64,000 bases of DNA from a phage: the sequence record PZ452578.1. The stretch is one strand, 5' to 3'. A model generated the notes under the pieces. It was not told the origin of the DNA, searched no databases, and saw only the letters and a list, made by a program, of their open reading frames with translations. The translations under genes were made by a program, and so were the position numbers. Shown one piece after another: positions 183 through 47,192 of this stretch. Each line of letters starts with the position of its first letter. Position 1 is the first letter of the stretch.

Positions 183-2879
183 TCAGCCAAACAGGAAGTC
201 TAACGAAGCTTTTTCTTCATAGTCCATACCAGCCGATTCACACATGCCTGCAAGCGGTTTAACAAACGATTTTTGGAACAAAGTTGAGTAGTCAATCCAA
301 GACAGTACGTCAGAACGAATTTCTTTTGGAAGTTCTGTGCCCGACGGCCAAGCAATGCACTTGTCACCAAATGGATTTCCTTCACGCAATGGAAGAACCA
401 TTACTTTATTTCCATCCAAAATTGGAGCTACACCCAGACCACTAACAGCTCGACGATAAGTTAGCACACCGCGAATATGGAACGGACATTTAAATCCTGG
501 CCAACCTTTATCATCATATTTCGCTATATCGTTCGCAGTTTTTACTTCAGCAATAACTTTATAGTCAAGTTGACGATATTCTTTCTCAAAGTTCTTATAA
601 TATTCTTGAACAGACTCTTCGCCTTCTTGAAGAATACGACGGATACTTTCTTCAAGAGCTTCTTGGACCGCTTTAGGCGTTGAACTCTGCTGAGTTTCCA
701 TACCCATGATTTTTAGATGCGGTTCAGCAAATCGCTTATCTTCCATATCATAAACGTTCAGAGCATAACGTTTTTTCGCTTTCCAAAATCCACCAACACC
801 CTTTGAACCAAGCGGAGGGCAAGAAATAGCTTCACGGTCCATATGCATCAGATGCTCGCGGTTATTCATATAATCACATAACTCACGATATGCAACATCA
901 ATCATAGGTTCCATCTTTTTCTTACCGAACTGATTCATGAATTCAACTAAATCGTTCTGCTCTTTGAATCGGTCAAGACCAACTTTTTCAATAACTTTAT
1001 CTACACAAACATATACCGAATCAGTATCACCTGCTGCGATGAAATCTTCGCCATTAGTTCCGCATACTTTATTCAGATATTCATTAATTTTACGAGCAAT
1101 CCACTGAATACCAACTTGGCCGAAAATTGTGATAGCAGTAGCATTTCGCAAATCATAGTAACGAAAATGAATATTACCAAGAGCACCGTAAAGACTGTTA
1201 ATAAGAATTTTACGGTTCAGCTGATTTGTGTTAGCAAGTGTAGCTGCTTTTTCACATTCTTCAATCAAACTATTGAGAACAGATTCGGTGTAATTCGATA
1301 GTTCATTTAAGAAATCATCACTGAACTTAACATATCGTTCAACTTCAGGTTTAGTTGAACAAGACCCTGCGCCTTTCATAATAATCTTTTTAATAGCTTC
1401 GGCATTCATTTCTTCAGCGAACATTTTCTTTTTCCAATCTTTACGCTGGAAAAATACTTTAGCGATTTCCTTTGGAATGATACCTTCTTGATGCTTATCA
1501 TACATCCATCCATTCGGAGAACAAGAATATTCATCACTCGGTTTAGGAGCTGTTCCTGCGATATATTCATGAATTGGATGAACTTTAAATTGTCCACGAA
1601 TAGTCTCAGGACTAATGTTAACCTGGCGAATAATACTCGGATACAGAGACGTCAAGTCAAAACTCATAATGTATCGACGAGCAATTGGCTTAGGTTCAAA
1701 TACAAATGCACCCGGAAAACTCTGTTTAACATGCGAACCTTGTTGAGGAATAACCTTATGTTCACCTTTCAATGAGTTAAAAATAATAGCATCCCAAGTT
1801 TTAATAGGACTCATTACACCAGAAAAAGGCATTTTAGCGTAATAAGACATACTTAAAACTAGATCGATAAACCCGCGAATTTTATCAATTGCTTGAACTG
1901 ATTCTACGTCAATGATGTTATAACTAATGTATCGTTGATGATTAGTCTCACGAAGTTTATTAATAGGACCATCATACGGTAATTTACCTTTTTTGGTTTC
2001 ATGCTGAGCAACTGATTCCAAAGAGAATGACGGCAAATTAGTAAATGCGAATTTCTTATACAAATCTAAATAATCAAGAATAGATACGCCATCAATAGAA
2101 TAAATTTCTTTGCTACCGTACATATTTTGAATTAGTTTAGATTTTACTCGACCAATTGGAGAGAAGCGTTTCATACTACGTTCACCGAGAACCATTTTAA
2201 CGCGATTCATGATATACGGAACGTCAAATCCCTCAATATTCCAACCAGTAAAAATAGCAGGTCGTTTCTGTTCCCAAAGATTGATATATTCCATGAGCAT
2301 ATCACGCTCATTATCGAATGGCATATAAATTACTCGGTCAAGAATTTCTTGAGGAACTTCATCACCACCTTCACAGTCAAGCTTAGCAGCTAACTTTGCA
2401 TCCCATTTTGATACTGAACCGTACATTGAATTCAAAAGGTCGAAAACATAAAAACGATCATCAATTGAATCGTAATGAGTGATAGCATCAATTTCATATT
2501 CAGCTTTCATTGGGTCAGGAAATTTATCACCAGTAACCTCAATGTCACAGTTAGCTACACGAACAAATTTTCGGTCATAAACAATTTCTGAACCGTATGT
2601 ATCACTGATATAAGCGAGTTTAAAATCGTTCATACCGAGAGCTTCGAGACCGATGTCTTCCATTCGTTTCATCCAATCTCGAGCATCTTTCATTGATGGA
2701 AATTTTTGAGGAGCGCAGTTTTTACCATAAATGTCTTTGTACTTTGACTCTTCCTTACAATGCCTAAACATAGTTGGAAGATATTCTACTTCACGAGTAC
2801 GTTCCTTTCCGTTTTCATCAATATAACGTTCAACAATGTTATTTCCGACTGTTTCAATAGAGATATAAAATTCTTTCAT
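183..2879 (-). CDS. 43: DNA polymerase gp43 (family B, 3'-5' exonuclease plus polymerase)
   Basis: 898-aa ORF starting MKEFYISIETVGNN; exo motif CDIEV, polymerase motifs SLYPSII and GDTDS; size and sequence as I recall for T4 gp43. Confidence 0.97.
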   Translation of the reverse strand: MKEFYISIETVGNNIVERYIDENGKERTREVEYLPTMFRHCKEESKYKDIYGKNCAPQKFPSMKDARDWMKRMEDIGLEALGMNDFKLAYISDTYGSEIVYDRKFVRVANCDIEVTGDKFPDPMKAEYEIDAITHYDSIDDRFYVFDLLNSMYGSVSKWDAKLAAKLDCEGGDEVPQEILDRVIYMPFDNERDMLMEYINLWEQKRPAIFTGWNIEGFDVPYIMNRVKMVLGERSMKRFSPIGRVKSKLIQNMYGSKEIYSIDGVSILDYLDLYKKFAFTNLPSFSLESVAQHETKKGKLPYDGPINKLRETNHQRYISYNIIDVESVQAIDKIRGFIDLVLSMSYYAKMPFSGVMSPIKTWDAIIFNSLKGEHKVIPQQGSHVKQSFPGAFVFEPKPIARRYIMSFDLTSLYPSIIRQVNISPETIRGQFKVHPIHEYIAGTAPKPSDEYSCSPNGWMYDKHQEGIIPKEIAKVFFQRKDWKKKMFAEEMNAEAIKKIIMKGAGSCSTKPEVERYVKFSDDFLNELSNYTESVLNSLIEECEKAATLANTNQLNRKILINSLYGALGNIHFRYYDLRNATAITIFGQVGIQWIARKINEYLNKVCGTNGEDFIAAGDTDSVYVCVDKVIEKVGLDRFKEQNDLVEFMNQFGKKKMEPMIDVAYRELCDYMNNREHLMHMDREAISCPPLGSKGVGGFWKAKKRYALNVYDMEDKRFAEPHLKIMGMETQQSSTPKAVQEALEESIRRILQEGEESVQEYYKNFEKEYRQLDYKVIAEVKTANDIAKYDDKGWPGFKCPFHIRGVLTYRRAVSGLGVAPILDGNKVMVLPLREGNPFGDKCIAWPSGTELPKEIRSDVLSWIDYSTLFQKSFVKPLAGMCESAGMDYEEKASLDFLFG

Positions 2880-2920
2880 AGATATTCCTTAGTTTATAGC
2901 CCGAGTTATTAGGCTCTTGA
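2880..2920 (-). promoter_or_regulatory. gene 43 5' leader with translational operator-like hairpin
   Basis: Minus-strand leader AAGAGCCUAAUAACUCGGGCUAUAAACUAAGGAAUAUCU-AUG: 5-bp stem AGCCU/GGGCU, 8-nt loop, then SD AAGGA. Matches the architecture of the T4 gp43 autogenous repression site. Confidence 0.5.
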
Positions 2921-2939
2921 TATATTATACTCCAAATAA

Positions 2940-2954
2940 GGGGCCGAAGCCCCT
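2940..2954 (-). terminator. UUCG-tetraloop hairpin (terminator or RNA-stability element)
   Basis: GGGGC-UUCG-GCCCC on the minus-strand transcript between the small ORF and the gene 43 leader. Confidence 0.5.
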
Positions 2955-2957
2955 TGC

Positions 2958-3179
2958 TTAAATTAGTACTATTTGCCGGGTGAAAATTGTCAATCCATCT
3001 GCATTAATTGACTTAACGACTGCAGTAAAATGTTTTTGTTCTGGGTGAACTAATTTTTGAAATTCTACCTGAAATTTTAATTGGAGGTTTTCTGGTAAAT
3101 CAAAAAGTGTTTCTGTTGCAGAAAGATTATATTTTTCTTTAAGAGACGCCATGTATTCTTGCGGAGTTATAGCAGTCAT
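2958..3179 (-). CDS. hypothetical small protein between regA and gene 43
   Basis: 73 aa from the ATG one nt after the regA stop (MTAITPQEY...); ends just before the hairpin at 2940-2954. No recognisable motif. Confidence 0.4.
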   Translation of the reverse strand: MTAITPQEYMASLKEKYNLSATETLFDLPENLQLKFQVEFQKLVHPEQKHFTAVVKSINADGLTIFTRQIVLI

Positions 3180-26714: not shown

Positions 26715-27434
26715 TTACGATTCTTCTAAATGTCTTTTCTGAAAAGTTGATACCATACTACGATAAGGTTCATTTGGATACCCGTGTTTTATAGCTTCCT
26801 TTGTAAATTTTCTCCATCCGTATTTAGTTTCTTTCCAAAGCTCGAATAATTCATCTTCATACTGCCATATAGTTAAATGAGAACGCTTTGCAGCTTTAAT
26901 TCCATTAATGTGCTTTTCTTTTACTGTAGGATTGCTTAGTGTCTTTTTAATAATATTACTAACTTTTCTAACAAAAGCTGGGTCCTTATATCGTTGTGAA
27001 GTTTTTATTGAAGTGTTTAATTTAGCTTCCGGCGTGGATGTGACCTCTTTCATCTTTTTCTTCATATGCTCTATATGATTAGGATTTTTCCATAAATTTA
27101 TAGAATGCTTTTTACATTTTATCCTAGTTTCATCTGCAACCTTTCCTCCTTCACCCCCATATGACAGGTTAACGCAGTTTTTTCCATATTTCAATTTACC
27201 TGCCATGATATATAATATTTCGGCTTGTACCATTTTATCATAATTATCAAAAACTTCTAAAACCGTTTTTGATAATATATGGTCATTTGACACTTTTACA
27301 CGTTCTATATAATTTCCACTACCAACATACGAATCATTGATGTTATTAGTTATATGTCGACCATAATAGTATTTCTTAATACCTGTCTTTAAATTTAATA
27401 TTTCAGTTTTATAGATAGTAAAATATTTTTTCAT
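26715..27434 (-). CDS. hypothetical protein, possible degenerate GIY-YIG-like nuclease module
   Basis: 239 aa; N-terminal FTIYKTEILNLKTGIKKYYYGRH resembles GIY-x-YIG-R; basic C-terminal half. Weak assignment. Confidence 0.4.
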   Translation of the reverse strand: MKKYFTIYKTEILNLKTGIKKYYYGRHITNNINDSYVGSGNYIERVKVSNDHILSKTVLEVFDNYDKMVQAEILYIMAGKLKYGKNCVNLSYGGEGGKVADETRIKCKKHSINLWKNPNHIEHMKKKMKEVTSTPEAKLNTSIKTSQRYKDPAFVRKVSNIIKKTLSNPTVKEKHINGIKAAKRSHLTIWQYEDELFELWKETKYGWRKFTKEAIKHGYPNEPYRSMVSTFQKRHLEES

Positions 27435-37570: not shown

Positions 37571-37897
37571 TCAATTAGAAAATAAATTTATCCAAGATTG
37601 TTCTTTAATTAAAAACGGCTCAGAATCATATGCCATTAAACTTTGGGTGATTAGTCCTTTAAAAGGCCCATCAATAAATTCCATGGTAAAATATGGAATT
37701 TTATTCATTAGCCGTGCATTAGGAGCCGTGCACAAAACTCTGCATCCTTTGAATACGCCTTTTTGTAATTTGTATTGCTTGGGATAAAATTCGCTCAAAA
37801 TGTTATTATTTGCTAAAATTTCAAAATGATTCACCAATTTATTTTTAATAGTTTTTGGCGAAAAATAAAGATATTCGAAAAGCTGAGTGTCTGTCAT
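37571..37897 (-). CDS. hypothetical protein
   Basis: Start set at MTDTQLFEY, overlapping the stop of the upstream ORF. Confidence 0.5.
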
Positions 37898-38436
37898 CAT
37901 TGCATTCCGATTACGAAAAACTGTGGACGAGTAATACCACCAATACAACATTTAATATTACAGCAGCAGTGTACAGTGTCAATATGGACACTATAAATCT
38001 TATCCATATCAGGAGATTTGACAGGCTCATCAATTATATATAAAATTCGCGAAAGCGATAAACCTCTGAACTTGCTTCCTTTATTACCAATAAAACTGCG
38101 CACAGAATCAGTAAATAAACGAAAACGTATATCATCATTAGAATAACGCGAAAATTCCTTTTTAATGTTATTTGCAGAAATTTTAGCGTAAGCTGAAGTA
38201 TTAGAAAGAACAATAACTGTTCCGCCATCATACAGCCAATTAGCAGCAAAGTTAGTCACAGCAATTGATTTACCGGATTGACGTCCACCATCTAGTCGAA
38301 GTGTGCAATACTGTTTAAGTAAGTCTTCAAATGGCGGGATATATTCGTTTTTACAAATTTCTTCTACTCTAGCATCAGAATGGTGTGTAAAAGCATTCAT
38401 CAGGGATAGATAAGGACCAGTTAAAAATGTTCTCAT
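37897..38436 (-). CDS. small P-loop NTPase-like protein with C-terminal Cys cluster
   Basis: 179 aa; Walker A LDGGRQSGKS, Walker B ILYIIDEP, C-terminal HCCCNIKCC. Confidence 0.55.
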   Translation of the reverse strand: MRTFLTGPYLSLMNAFTHHSDARVEEICKNEYIPPFEDLLKQYCTLRLDGGRQSGKSIAVTNFAANWLYDGGTVIVLSNTSAYAKISANNIKKEFSRYSNDDIRFRLFTDSVRSFIGNKGSKFRGLSLSRILYIIDEPVKSPDMDKIYSVHIDTVHCCCNIKCCIGGITRPQFFVIGMQ

Positions 38437-38576
38437 TTCTTCTCTCTAAATTTGGGCCATTCCGTGGCGCATGAATTGTCCATTTCTGTATTTACCCATT
38501 ACCGCGCTTGGGCTCGACCTTATTACAGGTTGGCGGGAATCCCTCACAAAATCATGAGGTCCAGGTTGTTCCCATG

Positions 38577-39050
38577 TTATTTGAATGATTTAACGTACTG
38601 AATAGAACCTTTACTATTCACAAAGGCAATTTTACCATTTTTGTTATACATGGTAGCAGTACGTTGATAGCCATAAGTTTGTTTACCAGATTGATAACCA
38701 ACTAATGCGAAATTATCTTCACCCATTTTATTCTGTTTAGCGCGAATACGTTCATGGCCATGTGCCATAAGAACCTTAGCATCACCAGTTGCAATGGATC
38801 TACGAGTTTTTTCATCTTCAACTGTATTAACAAAGTCGTCAAATGAATCAAATTTAGCATGAGATTTATTATACAGTTTTCCATCTACTGCATAATTATA
38901 TCCTTGTACATCCATCTCAACTTCTGTACCATCATCCAGTACAGCAGTGATTTTCTGTCCTTTTTTAAATTTCAAAAGATCAGTAAAAGATTCAGCAATA
39001 ATTTGAGAATTAATAGCTGCTTCAGTAATAAATTCTTGATAGGTTTTCAT
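38577..39050 (-). CDS. internal-protein-like head cargo protein with capsid targeting sequence
   Basis: 157 aa; N-terminus MKTYQEFITE matches the T4 internal-protein CTS consensus MKTYQEFIAE (prohead protease site L/I-x-E). Confidence 0.7.
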   Translation of the reverse strand: MKTYQEFITEAAINSQIIAESFTDLLKFKKGQKITAVLDDGTEVEMDVQGYNYAVDGKLYNKSHAKFDSFDDFVNTVEDEKTRRSIATGDAKVLMAHGHERIRAKQNKMGEDNFALVGYQSGKQTYGYQRTATMYNKNGKIAFVNSKGSIQYVKSFK

Positions 39051-39066
39051 GTGTTTCCTTTAATTT

Positions 39067-39384
39067 TTATTCTTTAGGGAAGTTTTTAGAATATGCATCA
39101 TAAAGCTTATTTCCAATACGGCGGAAAACTCTAGCCGCAAAACGATTTTCTGGGTTTTTAATCATGATTTGCATCATATAAGTACCCGCGTCAGAAAGAG
39201 CTTCTTCATAGTACCCGTTAATTTCTTTAAGAGTCCTACGTTTACCACCAGGACCATCAACAGTGATTTTCCATTTACCTGTAGAAGTACGACTTGGCGG
39301 CTCAACTTGTTCAATCCAGATATAACCGCCTTCTACACGTTGTCCTGCAGCAGATTCTGCAATAAATTCTTGATATGTTTTCAT
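39067..39384 (-). CDS. internal-protein-like head cargo protein with capsid targeting sequence
   Basis: 105 aa; N-terminus MKTYQEFIAE identical to the CTS consensus; basic body. Confidence 0.7.
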   Translation of the reverse strand: MKTYQEFIAESAAGQRVEGGYIWIEQVEPPSRTSTGKWKITVDGPGGKRRTLKEINGYYEEALSDAGTYMMQIMIKNPENRFAARVFRRIGNKLYDAYSKNFPKE

Positions 39385-39437
39385 GTGTTTCCTTTAAATA
39401 TTTTAATTAGTATAATTTATCTATTTAAGTAACTGTG

Positions 39438-39470
39438 AATATACTATCACAATTCCAAGAGAAAGTAAAC
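39438..39470 (-). promoter_or_regulatory. phage early promoter upstream of the internal-protein genes
   Basis: Minus strand: GTTTAC (-35), spacer, TGaTAGTAT (-10). Confidence 0.5.
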
Positions 39471-39474
39471 AGCT

Positions 39475-40443
<969 letters not shown>

Positions 40444-40462
<19 letters not shown>

Positions 40463-44534: not shown

Positions 44535-44610
44535 TGGTCGAGGCAGTAGGAATCGAACCTACGACCTAGGACTTAGAAGGTCCTTGCTCTTCCTTCTGAG
44601 CTATGCCTCG
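44535..44610 (-). tRNA. tRNA-Arg (anticodon UCU)
   Basis: Hand-folded cloverleaf: acceptor CGAGGCA/UGCCUCG, anticodon loop CUUCUAA, T-loop UUCGAUU, encoded CCA. Confidence 0.8.
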
Positions 44611-44614
44611 GATT

Positions 44615-44689
44615 TGGCGGACGTGATAGGATTCGAACCTATAACCAATCGCTTAACAGGCGATCGCTCTGCCATTGAGCTACACATCC
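44615..44689 (-). tRNA. tRNA-Asn (anticodon GUU)
   Basis: Hand-folded: acceptor GGAUGUG/CACGUCC (one G-U), anticodon loop CUGUUAA, T-loop UUCGAAU, encoded CCA. Confidence 0.75.
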
Positions 44690-44693
44690 AAAT

Positions 44694-44780
44694 TGGTGGG
44701 GAGTGATGGAGTCGAACCACCCGAGTCGCAATGACAATGGATTTACAGTCCACACCGCTACCTCTACGGGATAACTCCCC
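44694..44780 (-). tRNA. tRNA-Tyr (anticodon GUA), type II with long variable arm
   Basis: Hand-folded: acceptor GGGGAGU/ACUCCCC, anticodon loop CUGUAAA, long variable arm, T-loop UUCGACU, encoded CCA. Confidence 0.75.
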
Positions 44781-44789
44781 TAATTAATT

Positions 44790-44864
44790 TGGTGGCCCTG
44801 GGTGGAATTGAACCACCATCTGGCGATTATGAGTCGCTTGCTTGAACCTTCCAGCTACAGGGCC
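44790..44864 (-). tRNA. tRNA with CAU anticodon (Ile2/lysidine-type or Met)
   Basis: Hand-folded: acceptor GGCCCUG/CAGGGCC, anticodon loop CUCAUAA, T-loop UUCAAUU, encoded CCA. Confidence 0.7.
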
Positions 44865-44865
44865 T

Positions 44866-44941
44866 TGGTGCTGATTGACGGAATCGAACCGCCGACCTTC
44901 TCATTACAAGTGAGTTGCTCTACCTACTGAGCTAAATCAGC
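44866..44941 (-). tRNA. tRNA-Thr (anticodon UGU)
   Basis: Hand-folded: acceptor GCUGAUU/AAUCAGC, anticodon loop CUUGUAA, T-loop UUCGAUU, encoded CCA. Confidence 0.8.
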
Positions 44942-44946
44942 AAAAC

Positions 44947-45036
44947 TGGCGGAGGCGATAGGATTTGAACCTATGAGTCGCCGGAGCGACTGCCGGTTTT
45001 CAAGACCGGTGCATTAAACCACTCTGCCACGCCTCC
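44947..45036 (-). tRNA. tRNA-Ser (anticodon UGA), type II
   Basis: Hand-folded: acceptor GGAGGCG/CGCCUCC, anticodon loop CUUGAAA, long variable arm, T-loop UUCAAAU, encoded CCA. Confidence 0.8.
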
Positions 45037-45038
45037 AG

Positions 45039-45112
45039 TCTCCATACAAGGATTTGAACCTTGGACCTCCTGATCCCAAATCAGGCGCTCTACCAAACTG
45101 AGCTACACGGAG
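45039..45112 (-). tRNA. tRNA-Pro (anticodon UGG)
   Basis: Hand-folded: acceptor CUCCGUG/UAUGGAG, anticodon loop UUUGGGA, T-loop UUCAAAU; CCA not encoded. Confidence 0.75.
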
Positions 45113-45122
45113 TAAATTAAAT

Positions 45123-45196
<74 letters not shown>

Positions 45197-45201
45197 AAAT
45201 T

Positions 45202-45288
45202 TGGTGCGAGAAGTGGGACTCGAACCCACAAGGAAATCATTCCGCAGCATTTTAAGTGCTGTGCCTTTACCAATTTGACCATTCTCGC
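45202..45288 (-). tRNA. tRNA-Leu (anticodon UAA), type II
   Basis: Hand-folded: acceptor GCGAGAA/UUCUCGC, anticodon loop CUUAAAA, long variable arm, T-loop UUCGAGU, encoded CCA. Confidence 0.8.
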
Positions 45289-45289
45289 G

Positions 45290-45362
45290 CTGGGAATAAA
45301 GGACTCGAACCTTTGCATCCTGGAATCAAAATCCAGTGCCTTACCAACTTGGCTAATTCCCA
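45290..45362 (-). tRNA. tRNA-Gln (anticodon UUG)
   Basis: Hand-folded: acceptor UGGGAAU/AUUCCCA, anticodon loop UUUUGAU, T-loop UUCGAGU; CCA not encoded. Confidence 0.8.
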
Positions 45363-46901: not shown

Positions 46902-47192
46902 TTACAAAAGATTTTTAGCAATAATCTTGAGATGTGCTGCAGAAATGTGTTTAGCTTTAAACAACGCAGTTTCTTCAGCAGGAGAGATAACGATTGTAGC
47001 ACCATCCTTTTTAGCAGACCACCCATCACCTAAGTAAACAGTACCTTTGATTTCTTCGCCATCAACCAGACTAATCATTGGTTTACCTTCTCGTCCTTTA
47101 TTTGCTTTAATAACTTCAGAAGTAAGAGTAGCTTCGGTAATGGTAGAAACCGGGGTAGTTGTAGTAGAAGTAAATTCTTTAAATGTTTTCAT
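46902..47192 (-). CDS. ipI: internal protein I precursor (head-packaged anti-restriction protein)
   Basis: 96 aa; N-terminal MKTFKEF...TITE with an I-x-E protease site at residue 20 would leave a 76-aa mature protein, matching IPI* size; immediately upstream of 57B as in T4. Confidence 0.7.
   Translation of the reverse strand: MKTFKEFTSTTTTPVSTITEATLTSEVIKANKGREGKPMISLVDGEEIKGTVYLGDGWSAKKDGATIVISPAEETALFKAKHISAAHLKIIAKNLL

What the first reader, a model, noticed from the sequence alone, without database searches (positions are those of the whole stretch)
38437..39470. Two CTS-bearing internal-protein-like genes with unrecognised cargo domains where T4 has denV-ipII-ipIII
ORFs 38577..39050 and 39067..39384 start MKTYQEFITE and MKTYQEFIAE, the canonical internal-protein targeting sequence, but their bodies (157 and 105 aa) do not match the sizes I recall for T4 IPII or IPIII. 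They lie directly upstream of e, and no denV-like ORF is present. Internal proteins are injected with the DNA and include known anti-restriction factors, so divergent cargo here is a plausible host-range determinant.
Basis: partly seen in the sequence, partly recalled or inferred. Interest (0 to 1): 0.6.

Follow-up and report, generated by a model that had tools for sequence, protein, structure and literature searches.

The report
Known phage internal proteins Ip10, Ip4
The two genes are the already named T-even phage internal (injected) head proteins Ip10 and Ip4, common in hundreds of T4-like genomes but of unknown target, and the short stretch right after them holds a conserved folded RNA that no database lists.

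Summary
Two minus-strand ORFs (39067-39384, 105 aa; 38577-39050, 157 aa) start with the T4 capsid targeting sequence. They sit between e and vs.8, where T4 has ipIII-ipII-denV, and the window has no denV.

The cargo is not unrecognised. The 157-aa protein is Ip4: Pfam DUF7412, 100% identical to the phage T2 protein, 99% to UniProt "Ip4" of phage K3, and present in 471 phage records. The 105-aa protein is Ip10: 100% identical to the annotated Ip10 of PP01 and JK38, present in 190 records. Beyond the targeting sequence, neither resembles T4 IPI, IPII or IPIII, and neither resembles the other.

Structure prediction and fold and profile searches gave no functional assignment. The four characterised proteins of this class inhibit type IV restriction enzymes. 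A 2025 study tested ip4-10 against GmrSD variants without a reproducible hit, so the targets are open.

By-product: the 118 nt after the ip4 stop (38573-38456, minus strand) is a conserved pseudoknotted RNA-like element. It has compensatory changes, occurs in several T4-like genera and in rV5-like contigs, and has no Rfam match. T4's annotation reads it as the first 40 codons of vs.8.

The parts
39067..39384 (-). ip10, internal head protein Ip10 precursor (105 aa; predicted mature form 95 aa, 10.8 kDa, pI 9.6)
   Evidence: ORF. 100% identical to proteins annotated Ip10 in JK38 and, by position, PP01. PHROG 3966 E 2.7e-34. 190 phage records by tblastn.
38577..39050 (-). ip4 (ipIV), internal head protein Ip4 precursor (157 aa; predicted mature form 147 aa, 16.5 kDa, pI 9.1, or 137 aa if also cut after E20)
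   Evidence: ORF. Pfam DUF7412 319 bits and PHROG 3155. 100% identical to the phage T2 protein and 99% to Q38388 Ip4 of phage K3. 471 phage records.
39355..39384 (-). capsid targeting sequence of Ip10 (MKTYQEFIAE), with predicted gp21 cleavage after E10
   Evidence: 10/10 identical to the T4 IPII/IPIII targeting sequence. I-A-E fits the L/I-x-E rule (PMC9026906). Sequence homology with T4 ipIII ends exactly here.
39021..39050 (-). capsid targeting sequence of Ip4 (MKTYQEFITE), with predicted gp21 cleavage after E10; a second conserved I-A-E site ends at E20
   Evidence: 9/10 identity. [LI]xE sites at E10 and E20. The residue at the E20 position is nearly invariant in the family alignment A1.
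39349..39402 (-). ribosome-binding site plus targeting-sequence module of ip10, one copy of a 54-nt direct repeat
   Evidence: the repeat finder family D1, 87% identity to the copy at 39015-39068. AAAGGAAACACATG is present in both copies.
39015..39068 (-). ribosome-binding site plus targeting-sequence module of ip4, second copy of the direct repeat. Only 16 nt separate the ip10 stop from the ip4 start and no promoter lies between them, so the two genes are probably co-transcribed.
39441..39470 (-). sigma-70-like early promoter upstream of ip10 (TTTACT, 17 nt, TGaTAGTAT), nearly identical to the sequence upstream of T4 ipIII
   Evidence: Read from the sequence. The e-ip spacer, including this promoter-like site, is almost identical to T4's, with only a few differences nearer the RBS. 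It falls below the scan threshold (8/12 matches), so function is inferred.
39983..40003 (-). two T4 late-promoter consensus boxes (TATAAATA) upstream of e that could drive late e-ip10-ip4 transcripts
   Evidence: Exact matches at 39983-39990 and 39996-40003 on the minus strand. No terminator-like site between e and vs.8. Read-through is inferred.
38574..39354 (-). the exchanged cassette: Ip10 body, ip4 RBS/targeting module and Ip4 body. It replaces T4's IPIII body, ipII and denV.
   Evidence: Three-way alignment of window, T4 and JK38. Homology with T4 stops after codon 10 of ip10 and resumes at GGGAAC, 3 nt after the ip4 stop.
38456..38573 (-). conserved pseudoknotted RNA-like element directly 3' of ip4 and 5' of vs.8. 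Helices: P1 38573-38569/38539-38535, P2 38559-38555/38546-38542, pseudoknot 38564-38562/38488-38486, P3 38533-38531/38498-38496, Pa 38530-38527/38520-38517, P5 38468-38466/38458-38456.
   Evidence: Invariant 20-mer at 38511-38530. 1009 phage records by blastn. Frame-breaking indels. P1 forms in 41 of 42 distinct copies with at least 12 different helix sequences. Pair counts: 96.8% paired against 27-46% when slid, with 5 covarying pairs; 95.3% against 32-49% for the window's own type. No Rfam hit.

Best explanation
The two ORFs are ip10 and ip4, one of the standard alleles of the T-even internal-protein locus between e and vs.8. Each is made as a precursor whose first ten residues (the capsid targeting sequence) bind it to the scaffolding core of the prohead. 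The prohead protease gp21 then cuts after Glu10, and for Ip4 probably also after Glu20. This releases a small basic protein that is packed with the DNA and injected with it into the next host. There the proteins most likely act as stoichiometric inhibitors of a host nuclease that attacks glucosyl-hydroxymethylcytosine DNA, meaning a type IV restriction enzyme of a subtype not yet matched to them. The cassette was swapped in by recombination between the conserved RBS/targeting-sequence module on one side and the conserved RNA-like element on the other. Shown here: gene identity, the targeting and cleavage motifs, the cassette junctions, the distribution, and the lack of relation to IPI-III. Inferred: packaging, cleavage, injection and the anti-restriction role.
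For: Identity.

Targeting sequence: the experimentally critical residues Y4, F7, I8 and E10 are kept (PMC9026906). L/I-x-E sites are present.

Protein properties: mature pI is 9.1 and 9.6 and mass 16.5 and 10.8 kDa, in the range of T4 IPI-III.

Locus and signals: same slot, promoter and RBS as T4 ipIII. Late promoters lie upstream of e and no terminator lies in between.

Cassette exchange: junctions fall exactly at the end of the targeting sequence and after the stop codon. There is a 54-nt direct repeat. Other layouts exist: T2 has ip4 alone, T6 has nothing, JK38 has denV-ip10-ip4. Ip10 is about 96% identical in RB69-like phages.

Confidence: 0.6

Rival explanations
1. Ip4 and Ip10 are packaged, injected proteins, but their targets are not type IV restriction enzymes. 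They would block some other first-line defence or host function met at DNA entry, such as other nucleases, an abortive-infection sensor or a DNA-end-directed system.
For: The only published test against GmrSD variants was negative for ip4-10 (PMC12373910). The Ip4 core is very strongly conserved from Escherichia to Klebsiella, Salmonella and Serratia phages (49 invariant columns). That pattern suggests a conserved target rather than the hypervariable GmrSD family.
Against: All four characterised targeting-sequence proteins (Ip1, Ip2, Ip3, Bas37_0260) inhibit type IV enzymes. Only a small sample of GmrSD diversity was tested.
Confidence: 0.22
2. They serve mainly inside the phage particle. As abundant basic proteins they would help head assembly or neutralise DNA charge during packaging and ejection, with no specific host target.
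For: Both are basic. T4 IPIII mutants assemble heads more slowly with a lower burst, and lysines of internal proteins contact DNA phosphates (PMC9026906, PMC3012670). Sequence is nearly invariant within the genus.
Against: T6 lacks the whole locus and T2 lacks ip10, so neither protein is needed for a viable head. Non-specific charge neutralisation would not explain 49 invariant positions in a predicted folded domain.
Confidence: 0.13
3. The N-terminal motif is only a recombination scar. The proteins are not packaged and act, if at all, as ordinary cytoplasmic early proteins.
For: The RBS/targeting module is a DNA-level repeat that clearly takes part in cassette exchange. An early promoter precedes ip10.
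Against: The ten residues of the IPIII targeting sequence suffice to package foreign proteins (PMC9026906). Ip10 has them 10/10 and Ip4 9/10 with all critical residues. The motif is kept at the protein level in relatives only 60-70% identical.
Confidence: 0.03

Closest known systems
T4 internal proteins IPII (Ip2) and IPIII (Ip3)
   Same: Same locus downstream of e, with the same promoter/RBS region and the same 10-residue capsid targeting sequence with an I-x-E cleavage site. All are small basic proteins.
   Different: No detectable similarity after residue 10: BLAST E of 0.48 or worse on mature forms, and the profile-profile match covers the targeting sequence only. Sizes are 105 and 157 aa against 193 and 100 aa. 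Ip2 and Ip3 have known GmrSD targets (PMC12373910); Ip4 and Ip10 have none.
Ip4 of phages K3 and T2 (UniProt Q38388; Pfam DUF7412; PHROG 3155)
   Same: The same protein: 99-100% identity over the full length.
   Different: Nothing of substance. In T2, ip4 stands alone after e, whereas here ip10 precedes it.
Ip10 as annotated in PP01, JK38, SP18 and VR7 (PHROG 3966)
   Same: 100% identical to the JK38 and PP01 protein and 71-72% to SP18 and VR7 Ip10.
   Different: None for the Tequatrovirus copies. More distant relatives (48-53% identity) occur in Enterobacter, Klebsiella and Karamvirus-type phages.
T4 IPI* (Ip1) and Bas37_0260, injected inhibitors of GmrSD and McrBC
   Same: Same class: N-terminal targeting propeptide, gp21 processing, injection. 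A T4-type ipI (99% identical) is also present in this window at 46905-47192.
   Different: Different locus (next to 57B), a different and longer propeptide in IPI, and unrelated mature sequence. Their function is demonstrated (PMC3012670; bioRxiv 10.1101/2025.11.20.689424).
For the RNA-like element: riboswitch aptamers, small ribozymes and the T4 gene 32 leader pseudoknot
   Same: Invariant single-stranded core nucleotides, helices that covary, a pseudoknot, and a location in an mRNA leader or intergenic region.
   Different: No match to any of 4227 Rfam families at E of 1 or below. No ligand, cleavage site or binding protein is known. The downstream gene differs between phage groups.

Membership tests
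T-even internal proteins (packaged through a capsid targeting sequence) | N-terminal targeting sequence MKTYQEFIAE with Y4 and F7 (targeting) and I8 and E10 (processing) | tested here: met
   Ip10 10/10 and Ip4 9/10 (A9T), with all four critical residues kept. Residue roles from PMC9026906.
T-even internal proteins (packaged through a capsid targeting sequence) | gp21 cleavage motif L/I-x-E at the end of the propeptide | tested here: met
   I-A-E10 and I-T-E10, plus an extra conserved I-A-E20 in Ip4.
T-even internal proteins (packaged through a capsid targeting sequence) | Small basic mature protein | tested here: met
   10.8 kDa at pI 9.6 and 16.5 kDa at pI 9.1, against T4 IPI-III at pI 9.0-9.65.
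T-even internal proteins (packaged through a capsid targeting sequence) | Encoded in one of the two polymorphic ip loci (e to vs.8, or next to 57B) | tested here: met
   Between e and vs.8, with the flanks aligned to T4.
T-even internal proteins (packaged through a capsid targeting sequence) | Present in the virion in processed form and injected with the DNA | not testable with these tools
   No proteomic report for Ip4 or Ip10 was found.
Orthologs of T4 IPII or IPIII | Sequence similarity of the mature protein | tested here: not met
   BLAST of mature forms gives E of 0.48 or worse. hhalign aligns the 12 N-terminal columns only.
Ip4 / DUF7412 (PF24183) | Full-length match above the Pfam gathering score | tested here: met
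   319.4 bits against a cut-off of 27, residues 1-157 on profile positions 1-158. 100% identical to T2.
Ip10 / PHROG 3966 | Full-length match and identity to annotated Ip10 proteins | tested here: met
   E 2.7e-34 over residues 1-105. 100% identical to JK38 Ip10.
Type IV restriction (GmrSD/McrBC) inhibitors | Demonstrated inhibition of a type IV enzyme, or homology to a protein with that activity | tested here: inconclusive
   No homology to IPI, IPII or IPIII. No hit in PDB sequence or fold searches. The published screen of ip4-10 was negative for the variants tried. Activity cannot be tested here.
Any Rfam 15 RNA family (for the element at 38456-38573) | Covariance-model match | tested here: not met
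   No match at E of 1 or below in the window region or in 10 loci that carry other variants.
Protein-coding N-terminus of Vs.8 (T4 annotation NP_049732, 219 aa) | Open frame conserved among relatives | tested here: not met
   In-frame TAG in the window, JK38 and PP01; T2, read outside the alignment, shows the same TAG. Indels that are not multiples of three between genera, while the nucleotides stay conserved.

The most novel reading that the evidence does not exclude
The 118-nt element directly after ip4 (38573-38456, minus strand) may be a so far undescribed class of structured phage RNA. It would have a pseudoknotted fold with an invariant core (ACCUGUAAUAAGGUCGAGCC...GCGGUAA) and be shared by several Tevenvirinae genera and by rV5-like phages. 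It could act as a ligand- or protein-sensing regulator, a ribozyme, or a decoy for a host factor. It is physically linked to the internal-protein cassettes, forming their 3' boundary, and it flanks an ip gene on both sides in Klebsiella phage K65. Separately, Ip4 and Ip10 may inhibit defence systems that are not yet known.
Probability: 0.5. Interest if true: 0.65.

Novelty: already known. Interest (0 to 1): 0.3.

Why it matters
For the finding as written, little changes. It re-discovers the long-known polymorphism of T-even internal-protein genes, and the exact proteins are in public records, including phage T2.

What remains open is the target of Ip4 and Ip10. Every characterised member of the class disarms a type IV restriction enzyme. 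Matching these two very common alleles to their host targets would therefore help explain and predict the host range of therapeutic T4-like phages.

The unplanned result is more interesting. A strongly conserved, covariation-supported RNA fold lies between ip4 and vs.8. T4's reference annotation translates it as protein, and it appears in unrelated lytic coliphage groups. If confirmed, it adds a new RNA element to one of the best studied genomes and corrects the vs.8 gene model.

Tried and rejected
1. T4 IPII/IPIII orthology: rejected.

2. Function from homology:
- Pfam gives only DUF7412 for Ip4. Ip10 gets sub-threshold CsgH (E 0.088), and NCBIfam gives Ip4 a sub-threshold 'curli synthesis inhibitor' (17 bits against a cut-off of 300). 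I treat these as noise.
- PDB profile searches returned nothing below E 0.09.
- The 5.8-billion-protein search found only phage relatives.
- phmmer of Ip10 against 1.84 billion representatives found one real relative. The other five hits are large repeat proteins (FG-GAP, RTX, filamin, Calx-beta, SdrD), mutually inconsistent and driven by Gly/Asp/Thr-rich strands, and I rejected them.

3. Function from fold:
- AlphaFold models are of moderate confidence.
- BFVD returns only Ip4 itself. No assignment was made.

4. denV elsewhere in the window: absent.

5. The 140-nt spacer as a denV deletion scar: rejected. It is homologous to the region downstream of denV in T4.

6. The spacer as coding sequence (T4 Vs.8 N-terminus): rejected.

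7. The spacer as a known RNA family or tRNA: no hit.

8. Single-sequence folding of the spacer is not better than shuffles (z = 0.45). The structure became visible only by comparison across copies.

9. The MAFFT/RNAalifold run on the mixed-type alignment A5 recovered only invariant helices.

10. An unconstrained search for pseudoknot partners across types is not above chance. The pseudoknot therefore rests on positional covariation within alignment A6.

11. Genome and metagenome pattern scans mostly returned chance matches. Only 24 metagenome hits, and none of the 32 bacterial-genome hits, carry the full core.

12. Literature: no virion proteomics for Ip4 or Ip10 was found. Repoila et al. 1994 is not held.
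Full report
**What is there.** The window is a Tequatrovirus (T4-like) genome segment in the same orientation as the T4 map. On the minus strand the order is as follows:
- nudE (40007-40462)
- e (39475-39969, 97% identical to T4 lysozyme)
- a 105-aa ORF (39067-39384)
- a 157-aa ORF (38577-39050)
- 140 nt
- vs.8 (37897-38436, 98% identical to the matching part of T4 Vs.8)

Both ORFs begin with the T4 capsid targeting sequence, MKTYQEFIAE and MKTYQEFITE. They are the only two ORFs in the window with at least 6/10 identity to that motif. T4 has ipIII (193 aa), ipII (100 aa) and denV in this interval. No DenV homolog is encoded anywhere in the 64 kb.

**What the genes are.** The 157-aa protein gives a full-length match to Pfam DUF7412 (319 bits, cut-off 27) and to PHROG 3155 'internal virion protein'. 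It is 100% identical to the protein encoded right after e in phage T2. It is 99% identical to UniProt Q38388, named 'Ip4' of phage K3. PP01, JK38 and ime09 annotate it as ipIV or Ip4.

The 105-aa protein matches PHROG 3966 (E 2.7e-34). It is 100% identical to the JK38 protein annotated Ip10 and, by position, to PP01's, and 71% identical to Ip10 of Shigella phage SP18.

tblastn finds Ip4 in 471 phage records. Of these, 307 are at least 95% identical, and about 160 at 60-80% come from Klebsiella, Salmonella, Serratia and other phages. Ip10 is in 190 records, including RB69-like phages at about 96% and Enterobacter phages at about 50%. 304 records hold at least 80% of window 37800-40000 at 90-98% nucleotide identity. 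PMC12373910 credits the ip series ('at least 10 reported') to Repoila et al. 1994. I could not read that paper. The 'cargo' is thus catalogued and named, although its function is unknown.

**Relation to T4 proteins.** After removal of the propeptide, neither protein shows similarity to T4 IPI, IPII or IPIII, or to the other. BLAST E is 0.48 or worse, and the profile-profile match is confined to the 12 N-terminal columns. They share the class properties:
- Mature mass is 10.8 and 16.5 kDa and pI is 9.6 and 9.1, against pI 9.0-9.65 for the T4 trio.
- Both have an I-x-E cleavage site at E10.
- Ip4 has a second I-A-E ending at E20. Its Glu is nearly invariant in the family, so a double cut is plausible.

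The residues shown by suppressor analysis to matter in the IPIII targeting sequence (4 and 7 for targeting, 8 and 10 for processing; PMC9026906) are all kept.

**Anatomy of the locus.**
- The e-ip10 spacer is almost identical to the T4 e-ipIII spacer. It includes a sigma-70-like early promoter (TTTACT, 17 nt, TGaTAGTAT) and the RBS AAAGGAAACA.
- Homology with T4 runs through codon 10 of ip10, stops there, and resumes 3 nt after the ip4 stop. The exchanged cassette is therefore 38574-39354.
- The RBS plus targeting-sequence module is repeated in front of ip4: a 54-nt direct repeat at 87% identity. Only 16 nt separate the two genes.
- No promoter- or terminator-like site lies between e and vs.8 apart from the one upstream of ip10.
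- Two TATAAATA late-promoter boxes precede e.

Other phages show other layouts built from the same modules: T2 has e-ip4, JK38 has e-denV-ip10-ip4, T4 has e-ipIII-ipII-denV, and in T6 e abuts regB. This is modular shuffling through conserved end sequences. It agrees with the view of internal proteins as a diverse set sharing only the targeting sequence (PMC3012670; PMC9026906).

**Attempts to assign a function.**
- Sequence searches found only phage relatives. The 5.8-billion-protein search returned 14 clusters for Ip4 and 3 for Ip10. phmmer of Ip10 against 1.84 billion representatives returned one real relative plus five inconsistent repeat-protein hits, which I discard.
- PDB profile searches and NCBIfam gave nothing significant.
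- The AlphaFold2 model of Ip4 (pLDDT 72.7, pTM 0.67) has an N-terminal helix, a beta-hairpin, three short helices and a four-stranded sheet. The Ip10 model (65.8, 0.56) has a four-stranded sheet followed by two helices.
- Foldseek against viral models found only Ip4 itself.

**Most likely mechanism.** Packaging through the targeting sequence, gp21 processing and injection follow from the motif, whose sufficiency has been shown with foreign cargo. For the role in the host, the best guide is the class record:
- IPI* inhibits GmrSD of CT596.
- Ip2 and Ip3 each inhibit a different GmrSD variant, with no cross-protection (PMC12373910).
- IPIII is required on ECOR17 (PMC9391042).
- Bas37_0260, a targeting-sequence protein at the ipI locus, inhibits McrBC (bioRxiv 10.1101/2025.11.20.689424).

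I therefore rate 'injected inhibitor of a not yet matched type IV restriction enzyme' as most likely. Two points weigh against it. ip4-10 gave no reproducible effect on the GmrSD systems tried. And the strong conservation of the Ip4 core across phage genera would also fit a conserved, non-GmrSD target. A purely structural role is unlikely, because T6 lacks the locus and T2 lacks ip10.

**The stretch after ip4.** T4's annotation reads the 140 nt between ip4 and vs.8 as the first 40 codons of a 219-aa Vs.8. The window, JK38 and PP01 have an in-frame TAG there (T2's copy, examined separately, has the same TAG), and vs.8 starts at the ATG at 38436. The segment is GC-rich (50% against about 33% around it). 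By blastn it occurs in 1009 phage records. Its location varies:
- In Dhakavirus, Kanagawavirus and Klebsiella phages it always sits just upstream of the vs.8 homolog.
- In Klebsiella phage K65 it occurs twice, flanking an internal-protein gene.
- In rV5-like contigs it lies between an 80-aa gene and a small basic-protein gene.

A 20-mer (ACCTGTAATAAGGTCGAGCC, window 38511-38530) was chosen from alignment A4 and used as the search seed. It is the same in almost every copy; a few metagenome variants change its last base or two. Indels between genera break the reading frame while the nucleotides stay conserved. It is therefore not coding.

**Evidence for an RNA fold.**
- An enclosing helix P1 forms in 41 of 42 distinct copies, with at least 12 different sequences. 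Examples are GGGAA:UUCCC, GGGAG:CUCCC, AAAGG:CCUUU, AAAGC:GCUUU, AAAGA:UCUUU, GGGG:CCCC, GGAAC:GUUCC, UGAAUGU:ACAUUCA and UGUGUAU:AUACACA.
- The inner hairpin P2 changes from CCUCA:UGAGG to CCUUA:UAAGG, CACAU:AUGUG or CUACG:CGUAG.
- On the 25-sequence alignment of one subtype (A6), RNAalifold and my pair counts show clean covariation with no broken cells in several helices:
  - P1 pair: GC 18, CG 6, AU 1.
  - P2 pair: CG 15, AU 10.
  - P3 pair: UG 10, UA 7, CG 5, AU 3.
  - A pseudoknot between the 5' internal loop and the 3' domain: CG 14, AU 8, GC 3 at one pair and GC 14, CG 11 at the next.
- Overall on A6, 96.8% of cells pair, against 27-46% when partners are slid. Five pairs (42 cells) carry double changes, against 0-1 pairs when slid. 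The covariation score is 0.162 against 0.055 for shuffles (0 of 500 reach it).
- The window's own subtype (A7) gives 95.3% paired against 32-49% slid, with two compensatory pairs.
- G-U pairs fall on the minus strand, the sense strand of the genes.

There are caveats. Single-sequence folding is unremarkable (z = 0.45). Across subtypes the pseudoknot partners can be found by eye, but an unconstrained search is not above chance. The sequences are related, so the shuffle control overstates significance. The slid control and the multiple independent helix sequences are the stronger arguments.

Rfam 15 has no match. I found no description in the searchable literature. I could not check whether the motif is among the 10,006 unnamed candidates of PMC10690425. 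Its function is unknown. Because it sits in front of different genes in different phages, it may be an autonomous RNA or a portable regulatory module. At the DNA level it is the right-hand homology anchor of the ip cassette.

**Verdict.** The finding as written is a correct reading of an already known feature: ip10 and ip4, a common allele of the T-even internal-protein locus. Novelty is 'already known' and interest is low. The target of Ip4 and Ip10 remains an open and testable question. The adjacent RNA-like element is a by-product that I rate as more novel than the finding itself and worth experimental follow-up.

Noticed in passing
window 38456-38573 (minus strand): A conserved, GC-rich, pseudoknotted RNA-like element lies directly after the ip4 stop. 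It has an invariant core, covarying helices P1, P2 and P3 and a covarying pseudoknot. It occurs in about 1000 phage records, including other Tevenvirinae genera and rV5-like contigs, and has no Rfam match.
   Followed up: yes
window 38436-38547; L003 (T4) 1754-2413: T4's reference annotation of vs.8 (219 aa, NP_049732) extends 40 codons upstream through the RNA-like element. The window, JK38 and PP01 have an in-frame TAG there, T2's copy (read outside the alignment) has it too, and other genera have frame-breaking indels. The real vs.8 start is probably the ATG at 38436, giving 179 aa.
   Followed up: partly
window 46905-47192 (minus strand): A third internal-protein gene is present: a T4-type ipI, 99% identical to T4 IPI, at its usual place next to 57B. 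This phage therefore combines Ip1, Ip10 and Ip4.
   Followed up: partly
L010 (Klebsiella phage vB_Kpl_K65_evo5) 960-1137 and 1482-1659: Two copies of the RNA-like element of different subtypes bracket a 100-aa 'internal virion protein' gene. The first copy directly follows the Ip4 homolog, as in the window. The element may travel with ip cassettes.
   Followed up: partly
L006 (T6) and L007 (T2): In T6, e directly abuts regB, so the whole vs.3-vs.8, denV and ip segment is missing. T2 has e-ip4 only, its vs.8 appears frameshifted in record AP018813, and that record's product names in this region are plainly wrong (for example Ip4 is called 'valyl tRNA synthetase modifier').
   Followed up: partly
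one search hits H72-H81 (RB69, JS09 and relatives): Ip10 is about 96-97% identical in RB69-like phages, a degree of identity that would point to recent lateral transfer of the cassette if, as I recall but did not measure here, RB69-like genomes are otherwise much more diverged from T4. In the RB69 record the match is split in two pieces, possibly by a frameshift.
   Followed up: no
window 44535-45362 (minus strand): The tRNA cluster has ten genes: Arg, Asn, Tyr, Met, Thr, Ser, Pro, Gly, Leu and Gln. T4 has eight, with Ile and without Asn, Tyr and Met, and carries segB inside the cluster. In the window the only SegB-like match is weak (27% identity) and lies elsewhere, at 26877-27374.
   Followed up: no
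L004 (JK38) 2595-3011: In JK38-type phages denV sits between e and ip10, behind the same promoter, rather than between ipII and vs.8 as in T4. denV is thus itself a movable cassette in this locus. It is 78% identical to T4 DenV.
   Followed up: partly
L011, L038, L064, L080, L086 (rV5-like contigs): In these contigs the RNA-like element precedes a conserved gene of about 112-135 aa encoding a very basic N-terminus (KKRRRRGRPLKEES...) and lies about 600 nt upstream of a tRNA cluster. The function of that gene was not examined.
   Followed up: no
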